Of a stretch of 64,000 bases of DNA, positions 1 through 64,000 are shown piece by piece. Location of the stretch: contig OZ024762.1 in the NCBI GenBank assembly GCA_964016885.1, positions 17,484,001 to 17,548,000 of the forward strand. The letters run 5' to 3'. The notes under the pieces were generated by a model. It did no database searches, was not told the DNA's origin, and saw nothing but the letters and a program-made list of their open reading frames with translations. Position numbers and translations under genes: made by a program. The stretch's first letter is position 1; the number at the start of each line of letters is the position of its first letter. The DNA comes from Eledone cirrhosa (lineage: Eukaryota).

Positions 1-129
1 CTGAGGTTGACTGCCAGATATATATATATATATATTGTTATACTTTGCTAGAATCCCGGAGAACAACAGAAAGATGCTGAGTTCAGAGTATAAAAAACAA
101 TAGAAAGAAGGGCATAAATAAATATATAT

Positions 130-462
130 CAGTGGTTTAAAACCTTCTCTGCACCATGTCCCACCACGACATTTAAAATATGTTTATGTCCCCCCTTTAA
201 TATAAAAACAATCCGAGTCTTGTAAAAGTGTTATTACTGTAATATAAAGTAGAAACTGTTTATTTAAACAAAGCTGCGATGCAGCGATCATCAAAGCAAA
301 CCCCGAAATGTCAACAAACTTCTCGCAGGTGCTGCCAGATACACGATAACGTGTATACGAAGTGTAACAGGGAGTTGGGTCGTATTATATCACTTTCAAA
401 TTGACCCCTATTATATTCAAATTATCCCCTGTGGGGCGTGCACCCCACGTTGAGAATCCCTC
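130..462 (-). mobile_element. hAT/Charlie-like MITE relic overlapping the left IR arm (every unit)
   Basis: CAGTGGTTTAAAACCTT at 130 resembles the Charlie TIR CAGTGGTTCCCAACCT; the other end mirrors GAGGGATTCTCAACGTGGGG. Confidence 0.45.
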
Positions 463-1543
463 ATAAATAAATATATGTGAGTGTGTTGCTATGACTGCTA
501 TTTCTAGCAGGTTTATTGCAGTCCTGTAGACGCACACCAAAAACCGGAAGTGGCAGCCATTAAAAAACTTTGGCTTAAAATCAGGCAAAAGTTTTTTAAC
601 AATTTGCCAAGAAAGATAACTCTTGTCTTACTTAATCGCAAAAATCGAGGCAAATATTTTGCGGGTGTGCAGTTTGTTTGGTGTATTTGACTGCTTTTTC
701 TAACATATATGGAAACTTTAGAAATAGCAGCGAAACACGGAAAACATAAGAAAGAAGGACACACACGTATATATATATATATTTAATTATGTATCTGTAT
801 ATATATATATATACATATATATATGCACAGATATATATACATTTAAATATTTATATATATATACACGCGCGCACACACACCTATACGTAGATATGGGTGT
901 GTGTATAGCTGGTATATATATATATATATATATATATGTATGGGTGAGTGTATAGCTGGTATATATATATATATATATATATATATATATATATGTATAT
1001 GTATATATATATAGGTGTGTGTCCTTCTTTCTGCTGTCTTCCGTTTTTCGCTGCTATTTCTAAAGTGTCCATACATGCTAGAATTAGCAGTCAAATACAC
1101 CAAACAAACTGCACACCCGCAAAATTTTTGCCTCGATTTTTGCGATTAAGTAAGACAAGAGTTATCTTTCTTGGCAAATTGTTAAAAAACTTTTGCCTGA
1201 TTTTAAGCCAAAGTTTTTTAATGGCTGCCACTTCCGGTTTCTGTTGTGCGTCTACAGGACTGCAGTAAACCTGCTAGAAATAGCAGTCATAGCAACACAC
1301 TCACATATATTTATTTATGAGGGATTCTCAACGTGGGGTGCACGCCCCACAGGGGATAATTTGAATATAATAGGGGTCAACTTGAAAGTGATATAATACG
1401 ACCAAGCTTCCAGATACACTTCGTATACACATGTTATCGTGTATCTGGCAGCACCTACGAGAAGTTTGTTTTGATCATCGCTGCATCGCATCTTTGTTTA
1501 AATAAGGGGTTTCTACTTTATATTACAGTAATAAATGTTTTAC
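222..1543. repeat. Long inverted repeat: arms ~222-766 and ~1015-1543, (TA)n-rich spacer
   Basis: Arms are reverse complements; near-identical ORFs appear on opposite strands (385..588- and 1193..1396+). Confidence 0.95.
767..1013. repeat. (TA)n/(CA)n compound microsatellite spacer with two ATGGGTG[T/A]GTGTATAGCTGG direct repeats (in every unit, variable length)
   Basis: Direct inspection. Confidence 0.9.
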
Positions 1544-1668
1544 TTCGTCTACACATGTTATCGTGTATCCGGCAGCACCTATGGGCTGTTTGTTTACCGT
1601 TTGGTGTTTAATTTGATTATCGCTTCATAGCAGGTTTGTTTAATTAAAGGTTGCGAGGGGGATCACTG
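1319..1668 (+). mobile_element. hAT/Charlie-like MITE relic overlapping the right IR arm, with an internal ~120-bp direct repeat (1418.. and 1542..) (every unit)
   Basis: 5' (G)AGGGATTCTCAACGTGGGGTGCACG; 3' AAAGGTTG...GGGGATCACTG; ACTTCGT[A/C]TACACATGTTATCGTGTATC[T/C]GGCAGCACCTA occurs twice. Confidence 0.5.
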
Positions 1669-59970: not shown

Positions 59971-62344
59971 GTTAAATACTTGCTCAGAGAGGAACAGACC
60001 CACTTTATCATGTATTTGACCATGGTTCTTGTTGATTGTCATGGCATATGACAGTCTTAATGGAAACTGGGGTCTTTCCAAAGTAAAAGGGATGTTGGCA
60101 CCACTGGGAGCTAACTTCAGTCTTGGGATCAAAACACACCTGCCCATCAAAGGACCATAGATATGAGAAGCTTCGATAAAATGTTTATGCAGTTCCACTA
60201 CTTCTAATCTTGTGCCATTACATAATCTGTTCTGGATTGAAATATTCCATAGAAGCATTATTATTGATCCTGCTTTTAATTGGAGTTTGTGAGGCGGCAT
60301 CCCAGAAGGTGTAAGCAAGTTCAGATGTTCATTTAGCTTGAACCAGGCAGCAAGGGTAGTGTCTCGGTGTCCCTGTATTTCTACTGCAACCTGAGCATTG
60401 CCTCTTTGAAAGTAAACTCTGTTTGTTCTCCAGGTGTGTGTCTAGTTTGTATACTGTATGTGATGTACCATGAAGCTTAAATTCCGAGAGACACGACACT
60501 GCTTCTGGCTGAGACACATACCTGCAACAAAGATAGGTTCTTATTTCATCATGGTTGTGTTGGTTCTGAGCCTTATTAGGTAATGCATTATTCGTTACTT
60601 CTATAGTTGTACAATCATGCCCCATGTAACATATTTAAAGAGGTACTTGACACTTTTTACAGAAGGGCAAGCTTCAACATTAATATGTGCACAATATTTC
60701 TTAAGCAAAAAGGCATTAAATGGCACAACCTTCCTGTTATCTACTGAATGTCATCCAATTTACACTGCAGTTCCTGTACTCTGGGTATCCATTTAGGTTC
60801 AATAATGTTTCCCTTCTGTAGGTTTATGGATAGTTCTTTTGGAAAAATCCATTTTGTATAAATGGGGAAAAAGGGTTTCCAGAACCACATGGCCCGTGGA
60901 TCATAAACTTTTAAACCTGCTCATGTAGTACTGGATCATCTTCCAATGCAGGTATTTCTGCTGACACGATTCTGTCAATGTCTTCTCTGTTTCTTATCTT
61001 GCCTTCATTTCTTAAGGCTCAGTGTTATCATCTGTTTAGATAATTCATTAAACCATTATACTCATCCACTCACAATTGGGCTTGATTGTTCCTCAAATAT
61101 TGAAGCCTGCATCCCTCTACTTTCATATAGGCATCCACTAAATACTGCTAAAATAATTTACCTGCCCTATATATCGCACTAAATCCTCCTCTATATGCTA
61201 TACAGTATATGTAATACTCTGCATTGTCAGTCTATTGCAAACACAGGTCCTGCATTCCTCTCCATGTCACTATGCCACCAAAATTCACCATTATGGGTCG
61301 GTCATGAATTATGTGGTATTTTCTGAGGAGGATGGTCTTTAGGAAAGATGATAATATCTCTTTGTACAGGTGGTGTGCCCTCAATCCCCCACAAAACAAC
61401 AGCTATCATTACTAGTTGGTAAATTATCGCAGCTCATATCTGATCCTCTTTTAAATCTTAATTCACAGTTCTGTACACAACAATTTCCTCTTCTTGCACT
61501 TTGCTGTTTGATGCCATGCATTGTATTGTACACTTCGACATATGGATTACATTCATGCAACACCTCTCTTATCATAGTCATTTTTTGTGGTGAGCAGTCA
61601 TTATTTGTTGGCACTAGGGCAGTGGATTGGCAGTATCGGTAGAGCGTCAGACACCATGCTTTGCAGCATAGGGTTATGGCCCATTACGTTCTGGGTCCAA
61701 ATCCCTCCAAGGTTGACTTTGTTTTCATCCTTATGAGGTCGATAAATAAAGTACCAGTAATACACTGGAGTAATTGCTGACCTTGTGCCAGAAACAATTA
61801 TTTGGTGGTACTTCCAATCTGTGCTACACAGCTTCATTCCCATCAATAATATATAACTGGCCATATTGTGGTGTATTTTCTGCAGGTTACAGAGGTGGGG
61901 GTGTAGTGATATGTTTGACCCTGAATATGAAAGCTATACGGGCCTCTGCCAGGTGGTAAGGCAAGTTTAACACGAAATGAAGTGAAATAAATGTAGTTTT
62001 AATTGCAGATGTTTCTGTGAAATCAACTGCTTCCTGGCCTCTTTCAAAGAGATTTCTCAGTCTCTCAGGGTATATTTGCAATGGAGGCAACACAACCTTT
62101 CCTTTATTACAACAGTTACAATTTTCATTTCTAAATTTCAAAGCTCCACAGTGATCACAAGAAACATTCATATCACTAATATGAAATTCTTCTACATTTC
62201 CATTAATATTAATTGTTGGCCAATTTCTCTTACGACGCTCATTATCCATTCTTCTCTGTCTGAATGTTTTCCATTCTGTTGTTTATTATGTAATTAAATA
62301 GCTCTGTACAATACAGAGAGCACTCTTCTTTTCTTTACCTTTTC
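59967..62344 (-). mobile_element. Helitron RepHel pseudogene, unit 7
   Basis: ORFs from 59962 to 62249. Confidence 0.93.
61616..61796 (+). mobile_element. SINE in Helitron, unit 7
   Basis: Homologous to 5667-5847. Confidence 0.85.
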
Positions 62345-62556
62345 TATGGAAATACAAGAACAAACATATATATATATATATATATATGTATATAAATAAA
62401 CAAGACTGTTATTTCTCCAACCAGTCTATTTACCTTCGATAACTAAATATCAATACACCTATACCATACATACATATACAATATTTGTTTTTGATGCCGT
62501 GGTATAGCAGAGATAAGCAAGAAGAGAAAAGAAAATGAAAAGGAGAAAAAAAAAGA

Positions 62557-62862
62557 AGTAAGAAGTCGGGGGAGGGACAGACACTTCACCCCAGTCTAAG
62601 TGGTCCCTCAGCCGCAACTCGTGGAAGAAACGTAAAAGCGTTACCTCGGAGCAAGCCCAGAGACACCTGCTACAATAGTCGCCCTTCCTCACGAGGCTCC
62701 TGCCGTCTTTCCTCCCGACTTTATGGAGGAAATCAGCAGTACGGGGACCAAGTATGGCAGAGGTCTCAATGGAGTGGAAGAGATGAGTCAGGCCTCGGTA
62801 CTATCTTACTCTCCTCTGCATTGCGGGGTGTGGAGCCTAGGATTGTGGCTGTAGCTATATTT
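62557..62862 (-). mobile_element. CRE fragment 2, unit 7
   Basis: Homologous to 6600-6905. Confidence 0.75.
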
Positions 62863-64000
62863 GAACTTTTATATGAAATTTCAGTTTTATATTTTTCACA
62901 TCTTAAAACTTAATCTTAGTCTTTTGCAGCTCATCTTGTTTCATCTCGCAGCACACGATTTGGGAACCACTGCTCTAGAGATAGAAAAAGTATATTTTAT
63001 GCAGGGTTTCCCTGAGACATAAAAACTATTTCAAGAGATCGACATGGGTAGAAAGGTTGAGAAATGCTGCACAATGTTCTTTGGGTTTTGTTCACCTTTA
63101 AATAATCATGTATAAAATATCGGGTGTGCAAGATTTCATGAAAAGGTATAACATTATTTATGCTGATCTTGCAGGGACTAGCTCCAATTGAGAGTTGTAC
63201 CAATTCCCACTAAACTCGAAACTCCTGGACAATATATACATATCTTTATAAGTTCCTGTGTATTGTGTCGCTGTATAATGAAACATAAATATATACCATG
63301 CATGTCAGTCAGATTTGAACTCACTATATTTGGCGTTTTATAGATATAATTTGTTTGTTAAAAGAATTGATTAAATAATAACTAAATAAAATTAATTCTA
63401 CAATCCTGGATAGGGAATGAACTTATAACTTCATAATAGAAACCATCTATTCGAGCAGTATTGCCACCAGGTTACTTACAGAACTTCATTCAAATATAAA
63501 GTATAAAATATATGTCAGACAGTGAGTTCGAATCTAACTGATTAGTTGCCAACCGGTAGGTGATATCGACTAGGTTGGGAAAACTTGGTTAAGTAGCTCC
63601 AGTTATTGCTACGTTAGACATATTCAAGACTTATCGAGACCGAATGGAAGAAAGGTAAAGTTGAAATCAGAGTAAAGAACTGGAAAAATACTGCAAAGAA
63701 TTCTATCGGATGTTCTAACAATTCTACCAAATTACCTTATGTATATAAATTTATATCTGGAGATAAGAAGAAAACTGAAAGAAAGAAAAAAAAAAAAAAA
63801 ATGAAACTTTATATGTAACCCAGGATTGAAACCGAAACCAGGACCTCCACCATCTCTGGTATCACCCACCAGACCACCATGAAAGATACAAAAATCTGCT
63901 TTTTTAATATTTATAAGCCTACTTTCAATATTAAAGTAATTAACATGTGGTGTTGTTCATGCCTTTCTCTATGTTATTGGTAAAAAATAAAGTATTTAAA

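What the first reader, a model, noticed from the sequence alone, without database searches (positions are those of the whole stretch)
1..64000. Macrosatellite with higher-order structure built from dead transposon fragments
Seen: 7 head-to-tail units of three subtypes (A-B-L-B-L-A-B) differing only by scattered SNVs, microsatellite length and a few deletions. The TE fragments inside were already heavily decayed, with stops and frameshifts shared between units. Inference: an old nested-TE patch was amplified recently as an 8-11-kb unit with higher-order periodicity (a B+L dimer, possibly an ABLBL ~47.6-kb period). I found no gene that would explain the amplification, so a structural role (centromere, heterochromatin, subtelomere) or a small-RNA role is the candidate.
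Basis: partly seen in the sequence, partly recalled or inferred. Interest (0 to 1): 0.72.

Follow-up and report, generated by a model that had tools for sequence, protein, structure and literature searches.

The report
Multi-chromosome giant repeat of transposon debris
The window is the middle of a 135-kb run of 15 near-identical 8-11 kb blocks of broken transposons plus a 1.3-kb palindrome, one local branch of a gene-less repeat family with over 150 copies on a few small chromosomes, likely spread by ordinary unequal recombination rather than kept for a function, and of a kind already known from human DNA.

Summary
The tandem array is real and larger than the window: 15 units over 134.7 kb on C23, with no assembly gap. 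Each unit holds a Helitron remnant lacking both ends and its catalytic motif, a 1.3-kb palindrome, LINE, SINE and MITE pieces, and no gene. The long unit (L) is ancestral; A and B derive from it by a 2.9-kb deletion at a 4-base microhomology. The B+L dimer is real (three near-identical 19.6-kb blocks), but the 47.6-kb period holds for only about 22 kb and 'A' is a recombinant mosaic. The same cassette has at least 158 copies, nearly all in arrays on C18 and C20-C27, some beside zinc-finger genes, so the patch was already a tandem family before this array homogenised. Rolling-circle, centromeric and subtelomeric readings fail their tests. Best reading: a composite macrosatellite shaped by unequal crossing-over, gene conversion and segmental duplication, like the human MaLR LTR arrays. 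A hairpin-RNA role is untested. The scan has noted similar TE-debris macrosatellites elsewhere in this genome.

The parts
1..64000 (+). Middle of a 134.7-kb head-to-tail array of 15 units (G000:C23:17,440,966-17,575,661)
12378..23684 (+). Long (L, ancestral-type) unit, 11,307 bp; second copy 32012-43330; third starts at 59971
   Evidence: L cores differ at 1-3 of 6681 columns
20761..23680 (+). 2.92-kb segment present only in L units (second copy 40405-43326); lost in A/B units at a 4-base microhomology
   Evidence: 14 deleted v 144 intact junctions genome-wide
8000..27600 (+). B+L dimer block, about 19.6 kb, repeated at about 27,600 and 55,600 (limits approximate, 1-kb resolution)
12374..14672 (-). 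Helitron RepHel remnant: N-terminal Zn region, partial Helitron_like_N (profile 2-77 of 191), helicase C-terminal part; HUH motif region and about 1.5 kb of helicase deleted; no termini
23630..24155 (-). Helicase C-terminus (Pif1 2B domain) where an L tail precedes it; homology to the Helitron family stops at 23630
   Evidence: (E 2e-13)
14007..14210 (.). Very high-copy short interspersed repeat inserted in the Helitron (SINE label recalled, not tested)
   Evidence: hits in nearly every locus; absent from dispersed Helitron copies; very high read depth
16891..18189 (.). 1.3-kb palindrome: arms of about 550 bp around a TA-rich core; also at 222-1543, 8546-9878, 28192-29516, 36525-37821, 47837-49171, 56157-57475
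   Evidence: 87-91% self-complementary overall; 527 of 547 arm-1 bases pair with arm 2, longest unbroken helix 119 bp
17212..17231 (+). 20-mer in each arm resembling adjacent ETS and YY1 sites (motif names recalled); 440 exact copies genome-wide, 0 for the control
18315..18555 (.). (AT)n-(AG)n ... (CT)n microsatellite hairpin, length-variable between units
18640..19085 (-). 3' fragment of a dispersed retroelement-like repeat (CRE-type endonuclease label recalled; no Pfam hit)
20303..22534 (-). Broken RTE-like LINE with RVT_1 and PHD pieces; A/B units keep only its 3' ~450 bp
22534..22736 (.). Very high-copy short repeat with terminal inverted repeats in its complete C25 copy (MITE-like)
23319..23594 (-). 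PHD-like frame of another inserted element that truncates the Helitron 3' end (tentative)
   Evidence: E 0.018, below cut-off

Best explanation
This is a gene-less composite macrosatellite: a roughly 12-kb cassette of broken transposons and a palindrome that occurs in tandem arrays on several small chromosomes, likely dispersed by segmental duplication and likely expanded here by unequal crossing-over and gene conversion, without a selected function. Shown: the unit content, the dispersal, the L-to-A/B deletion polarity, the mosaic relatedness of units, and the loss of both Helitron ends. Inferred order: (1) an old Helitron, a LINE, a SINE, a MITE and other fragments nested in intergenic DNA related to that of zinc-finger clusters; (2) one arm was duplicated in inverted orientation; (3) the cassette became a tandem monomer and spread to C18, C20, C23, C24 and C25; (4) on C23 a microhomology-mediated 2.92-kb deletion made the short unit, which expanded and also seeded the array at C23:8.6 Mb; (5) recent misaligned crossovers copied a B+L pair three times, giving an incipient, irregular higher-order pattern. 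Neutrality is inferred from the absence of a gene and of a conserved sub-segment, not shown.
For: Array limits and 15 units. 144 intact plus 14 deleted junctions genome-wide, all 14 on C23; of the first 100 intact ones listed, 99 lie on C18, C20, C23, C24, C25 and 1 on C1. Other arrays keep the L-only segment, and C25 and C20 units keep a further 921 bp, so L is the older state. About 1 kb of non-unit flank is shared between this array's ends, C23:8.6 Mb and C25:26.45 Mb, as in segmental duplications. Best-match offsets switch abruptly along the array and U13 joins a short-type core to an L tail, as crossovers and conversion predict. Identity to other loci is flat, mostly 95-99% per 100-bp bin, with different segments deleted in different arrays. 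A tract of about 50 bp in the left arm of the three L-core units carries right-arm alleles and an L-derived base, a sign of arm-to-arm conversion. Public contigs of three organism labels cover 30, 29 and 24 of 30 bins of the L unit and carry the head-to-tail helicase joint. A 78-bp contig spans the deletion junction at depth 281 and 299 against about 2800 and 2670 summed depth beside it, about 0.10, close to 14 of 158 in the assembly. The same anatomy is described for human LTR arrays (PMC2588610, section 8) and T2T composites.
Against: Absence of function is not shown: no RNA or chromatin data were available. The palindrome, or at least one arm, is kept in nearly all array loci examined while LINE parts are often lost, and the family is confined to a few small chromosomes, which needs its own explanation. 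The read check is only suggestive: summed contig depth is not a copy number, X1 and X2 are one sample, the junction contig has 26-30 bases on its short side (under the tool's 31), and X1 shows only the non-window allele at several sites (for example 12848), so it cannot vouch for this array's unit order. Three blocks that differ at 1-3 sites could include an assembly duplication.
Confidence: 0.74

Rival explanations
1. The palindrome is transcribed into a ~550-bp hairpin that would feed endo-siRNA or ADAR pathways, and the arrays are selected sources of such RNA, for example to regulate neighbouring zinc-finger clusters or silence the embedded transposon families.
For: Every unit has a long, stable predicted stem (-1016 and -963 kcal/mol; helices of 119 and 136 bp). 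The arm carries an ETS/YY1-like 20-mer in 440 exact copies. Older single-arm paralogues at 75-84% identity lie 0.9 kb upstream of a putative ZNF promoter on C25 and the adjoining unit segment 1.3 kb from a ZNF frame on C18. The arm is rarely lost from arrays.
Against: The arm is no better conserved than the TE debris. Left arms group with left arms and right with right across chromosomes, so the stem is drifting apart with only one short conversion tract seen. Arm differences show no A-to-G excess (28 listed differences, mixed types). No ZNF motif in the 264 kb around this array. The C25 ZNF genes have a separate candidate promoter and first exon.
Confidence: 0.1
2. The array is a structural chromatin element (centromeric or pericentromeric heterochromatin) of the small chromosomes.
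For: Large tandem arrays with local higher-order blocks; the C25 relative spans about 2.6 Mb. CpG transitions among units are three times the non-CpG rate (20 of 293 v 53 of 2333), compatible with some germline methylation. Human LTR arrays of the same kind sit in pericentromeric regions.
Against: Three separate arrays on C23 (8.6, 15.2, 17.4 Mb) and several on C18, none on C2-C17; only 135 kb here; irregular order; 13 Mb from the nearer contig end, so not subtelomeric.
Confidence: 0.08
3. The near-identical dimer blocks, or much of the array, are an assembly over-expansion.
For: L cores differ at only 1-3 of 6681 columns; no long reads were available.
Against: Units otherwise differ at 6-118 sites with mosaic patterns; no N in the array; the three blocks have different breakpoints and microsatellite lengths; junction depth in public data matches the assembly proportion.
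Confidence: 0.06
4. The units are products of Helitron rolling-circle replication, the cassette being a large non-autonomous Helitron with captured DNA.
For: Every unit has a Helitron remnant, and head-to-tail arrays are a known Helitron product (own knowledge; search listing only).
Against: Homology to 16 dispersed family copies (17 loci compared, one being another cassette variant) stops inside the coding region at both sides (14672 and 23630) and the family's 3' tail is not found elsewhere in the unit. The HUH region is deleted. Dispersed relatives are 73-89% identical to each other's probe, so no young autonomous partner was seen among 40 scored of 62 candidates. Array ends fall at unrelated points, inside a LINE or an inversion.
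Confidence: 0.02

Closest known systems
Human MaLR 'LTR arrays' megasatellite (Warburton et al. 2008, PMC2588610; passages and section 8 read)
   Same: Multi-kilobase monomers made of decayed transposon fragments, arrays on many chromosomes inside segmental duplications, higher-order units marked by one monomer with an indel, irregularities attributed to unequal crossing-over.
   Different: Monomer here is 8-12 kb, not 3.5 kb; mixes Helitron, LINE, SINE and MITE pieces with a 1.3-kb palindrome; the higher-order unit is a 2-mer present only three times rather than a 6-mer; host is likely an octopod (inferred, not tested).
T2T-CHM13 composite repeats such as ACRO_Comp and LSAU-BETA (Hoyt et al., bioRxiv 10.1101/2021.07.12.451456; passages read)
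   Same: Unit of three or more repeat types in tandem 'macrosatellite' arrays, not itself mobile, on several chromosomes with high identity.
   Different: No captured exon or RNA gene found here; distribution limited to small chromosomes with zinc-finger clusters; no chromatin data.
Helitron-derived tandem arrays and Helitron-borne satellites (search listing only)
   Same: A Helitron fragment recurs once per unit.
   Different: No Helitron termini, no catalytic motif, no young partner; the Helitron is a passenger.

Membership tests
Composite macrosatellite (Hoyt/Warburton type) | Head-to-tail unit over 2 kb made of three or more repeat types | tested here: met
   8.3/11.3-kb units with Helitron, LINE, short interspersed repeats, microsatellites
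Composite macrosatellite (Hoyt/Warburton type) | Unit is not itself a transposable element (no termini, no intact enzyme) | tested here: met
Composite macrosatellite (Hoyt/Warburton type) | Signatures of unequal crossing-over or conversion among units | tested here: met
   switching best-match offsets, recombinant units
Composite macrosatellite (Hoyt/Warburton type) | Arrays on several chromosomes within shared duplicated flanks | tested here: met
Composite macrosatellite (Hoyt/Warburton type) | Copy-number variation between individuals | not testable with these tools
   only contig depths without a single-copy baseline
Regular higher-order repeat array | A fixed multimer repeated in register across the array | tested here: not met
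   19.6-kb dimer three times, one separated by a monomer; 47.6-kb offset holds for about 22 kb of 135 kb
Helitron rolling-circle array | 5'-TC and 3' hairpin-CTRR ends at the unit junction | tested here: not met
   remnant breaks inside the coding region at both sides
Helitron rolling-circle array | Intact RepHel in the unit or a young autonomous partner | tested here: not met
   HUH region deleted; dispersed relatives 73-89% (40 of 62 candidates scored)
Centromeric satellite | One main array on each chromosome | tested here: not met
   three arrays on C23, none listed on C2-C17
Centromeric satellite | CENP-A occupancy | not testable with these tools
   no chromatin data
Subtelomeric repeat | Position next to a chromosome end | tested here: not met
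   17.44-17.58 Mb of a 30.8-Mb contig
Gene-bearing macrosatellite (D4Z4, RNU2, ZNF-array type) | A protein or RNA gene in each unit | tested here: not met
   a short spliced or unknown non-coding gene is not excluded
Hairpin-RNA / endo-siRNA locus | Long inverted repeat able to form an extended stem | tested here: met
Hairpin-RNA / endo-siRNA locus | Transcription and small RNAs from the stem | not testable with these tools
   no RNA run could be laid

The most novel reading that the evidence does not exclude
A piece of zinc-finger-cluster intergenic DNA with an ETS/YY1-like promoter element folded into a palindrome, lost its link to a gene and was amplified to hundreds of copies on the zinc-finger-rich small chromosomes, where it produces long hairpin RNAs or titrates transcription factors and so tunes the expression of the cephalopod zinc-finger clusters.
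Probability: 0.08. Interest if true: 0.7.

Novelty: new member of a known kind. Interest (0 to 1): 0.28.

Why it matters
As it stands it is a clean invertebrate example of a composite macrosatellite, with an unusually readable history: an ancestral long unit, one dated-in-order deletion, and a higher-order dimer caught at three copies. It shows that the turnover which reshapes zinc-finger clusters on these small chromosomes also inflates gene-less blocks to megabase scale (about 2.6 Mb on C25). It would matter more only if the hundreds of palindromes prove to be transcribed into double-stranded RNA in an animal group known for heavy RNA editing.

Tried and rejected
1) 'The palindrome arm is specially conserved': suggested by 99% hits but these were the best 40 of 1224 candidates; gap-free identity per 100 bp is no higher in the arms than elsewhere. 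2) 'The arm is the zinc-finger gene promoter': the three C25 ZNF exons examined share a different upstream segment with its own ETS-like word and splice donor, and only one has an arm before it. 3) Rolling-circle origin. 4) 15727 as a Helitron 5' end: it is the junction to a 45-bp satellite in three loci and lies outside the family homology. 5) A hidden RNA gene: none. 6) ZNF exons inside sister arrays: none in the 80, 40, 30, 30 and 30 kb sampled on C25, C20 and C18. 7) Expression: no RNA holder listed. 8) Pfam assignment of the 18640-19085 fragment through two dispersed relatives: no hit. 9) One search folded only part of the palindrome and is not used. 10) Look-ups of earlier findings near this place, by relatives and by sequence returned nothing. 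11) The centromere atlas preprint has no occurrence of octopus, cephalopod or mollusc in its main text; its supplements could not be seen. Whether the ZNF-gene macrosatellite of e1-10343965 uses this same Helitron remnant was not established.
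Full report
Observation. Self-alignment shows the window to be wholly tandem, with offsets of 8.3, 11.3, 19.6, 28.0 and 47.6 kb. So B and L are real subtypes and A is a mosaic. The window is G000:C23:17,484,001-17,548,000 of a 3.0-Gb assembly. With 200 kb of flank the array runs from 17,440,966 to 17,575,661 (134.7 kb), holds 15 palindromes and 14 helicase junctions, has four L tails, and contains no N; the nearest gap is 33 kb to the right.

Higher-order structure. 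Best non-self matches per kilobase show a block of about 19-20 kb (B+L) present three times with 0-4 mismatches per kb. The 47.6-kb offset is best only for about 5,000-27,000 against 52,600-74,600; a 55.95-kb offset is best for another stretch of about 9 kb; the left third of the array is a patchwork of short units. Pairwise distances among 14 units range from 1 to 118 of 6681 columns, with site patterns that switch partners along the unit. This is an incipient, irregular higher-order pattern, as unequal crossovers and conversion would leave, not a fixed period.

Anatomy of the unit. On the minus strand lie a Helitron remnant (Helitron_like_N positions 2-77 of 191; Pif1 2B, E 2e-13), an RTE-like LINE (RVT_1, PHD) and a weak PHD-like frame. 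A dispersed relative keeps positions 14-191 of the Rep domain, so the unit has lost its catalytic region, and about 1.5 kb of helicase. Against 17 loci of the family (16 dispersed copies, of which 2 gave no alignment at either boundary region, and one cassette variant), homology starts no further out than 14672 and stops at 23630, both inside coding sequence; the family continues on both sides and its 3' tail is not found elsewhere in the unit. The family is old (73-89% to a probe; 40 of 62 candidates scored). Each unit also has a 1.3-kb palindrome with arms of about 550 bp around a TA core, predicted to pair over 527 of 547 bases in L, a microsatellite hairpin, a 3' fragment of a dispersed retroelement-like repeat (no Pfam hit) and two very high-copy short repeats. 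No tRNA, Rfam family, ZNF or other host gene was found.

Polarity. A/B units lack 20761-23680, joined at a 4-base microhomology. Exact patterns find 14 deleted junctions, all on C23 (10 here, 4 at 8.6 Mb), and 144 intact ones. Units on C25 and C20 keep the L-only segment and a further 921 bp. L is therefore the older form and the short unit a C23 innovation.

The family. The same cassette forms arrays at C23:8.6 and 15.2-15.3 Mb, C25:14.7 and 26.5-29.1 Mb, C20:26.8-27.35 Mb, C18:25.0-25.1 and 34.9-35.8 Mb and C24:3.8 and 5.5 Mb. Of 150 scored helicase matches 148 are at 86% or more. Sister arrays contain every adjacent step of the unit's circular order, each with its own deletions and inversions, at mostly 95-99% per 100-bp bin. 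About 1 kb of non-unit flank is shared between this array's ends, C23:8.6 Mb and C25:26.45 Mb. The C25 mega-array has ZNF genes of one subfamily on both sides, the C23:8.6 Mb array ends 6 kb from a 13-finger frame, and older single-arm paralogues at 75-84% lie beside ZNF frames on C18 and C25; ZNF frames were seen in 2 of the 11 regions. This array has none within 264 kb. Cephalopod ZNF genes are known to be expanded and clustered (PMC9068888 and PMC12513265, passages). Using the rate implied by PMC13282606 (JC 0.09 = 25 My; first third of the text read), a borrowed and rough clock, the dimer copies would be under 0.1 My old, the L-A/B split about 2 My and the inter-chromosome spread about 3-4 My; conversion biases these downward.

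The palindrome. Arms group by side across chromosomes, so the inversion predates dispersal. One tract of about 50 bp in the left arm of the three L-core units has right-arm alleles and an L-derived base, showing occasional arm-to-arm conversion. The arms are not more conserved than the rest, show no A-to-G excess, and are not the shared upstream segment of the C25 ZNF genes. An ETS/YY1-like 20-mer (names recalled) has 440 exact copies; of the first 100 listed, 98 are on C18 and C20.

Independent data. Contigs of three organism labels cover 30, 29 and 24 of 30 bins of the L unit and include the helicase joint, so the cassette is shared beyond one sample. A 78-bp contig matches the deletion junction without mismatch at depth 281 and 299 (one sample), about a tenth of the summed depth beside it, against 14 of 158 in the assembly. 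This is suggestive only: depth sums are not copy numbers, the short side is under 31 bases, and that sample lacks several window alleles.

Mechanism and rivals. Most likely (0.74) a passenger-only composite macrosatellite turned over by recombination. Hairpin-RNA source 0.10, structural chromatin 0.08, assembly over-expansion 0.06, rolling circle 0.02; evidence is in the Rival explanations section.

Comparison. It meets the tested features of the composite macrosatellites defined in the T2T repeat paper (passages) and parallels the human MaLR LTR arrays, including monomer-marked higher-order units and dispersal in segmental duplications (section 8 read). A search for 'macrosatellite' with 'octopus' gave 3 papers, the 2 listed being on human repeats; searches listed no description of this family by title or abstract start; the library is incomplete and supplements were not read. 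Earlier unreviewed notes of this scan describe similar TE-debris macrosatellites on other pieces of this genome (e1-9885723, e1-9940344). Verdict: real, new member of a known kind, interest 0.28.

Noticed in passing
G000:C25 about 26.46-29.10 Mb (sampled: L027-L030, L051-L058, L095-L101): A sister array of about 2.6 Mb with 13-17-kb variant units and nested dimers, with ZNF genes of one subfamily at 26.33-26.44 and 29.31-29.32 Mb.
   Followed up: partly
L108:6331-7458, L109, L027:513-1355 and 4568-5578: Three ZNF frames (13, 9, 11 fingers) followed by a 72-bp VNTR; two of them are then followed by the same Helitron remnant at 96-97%; a shared upstream segment has an ETS-like word and a splice donor at about L109:8930-8995.
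   Followed up: partly
L125:5300-10000 (G000:C25:15.435-15.440 Mb): The palindrome alone repeated in tandem about every 1.1 kb, a foldback satellite made from this unit's arms.
   Followed up: no
L032 near 2730; L033 near 7270; L036 near 2550: Three loci break at the same base (window 15727) into a 45-bp satellite that switches strand.
   Followed up: no
G000:C23:17,439,235-17,440,966 (L005): The array's left end is an inverted 1.5-kb piece of the helicase region followed by short rearranged fragments; about 1 kb of flank near it is also found at the right end and at two other loci.
   Followed up: partly
L017:6351-9824: A 1158-codon open frame with endonuclease, reverse transcriptase and PHD domains about 50 kb right of the array, possibly a near-intact RTE-type LINE.
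   Followed up: no
L034:3217-4224: An uninterrupted 336-codon frame with a CSN8/PSMD8/EIF3K domain next to the C20 array end, perhaps a retrocopy.
   Followed up: no
L121:5285-7400 (G000:C25:28.01 Mb): A cassette variant that still has the helicase section and about 165 bp of Helitron tail lost from the other copies examined.
   Followed up: partly
G000:C23:17,608,605-17,608,804 (L016): A 200-N scaffold gap 33 kb right of the array, near an inverted duplication of flank.
   Followed up: no
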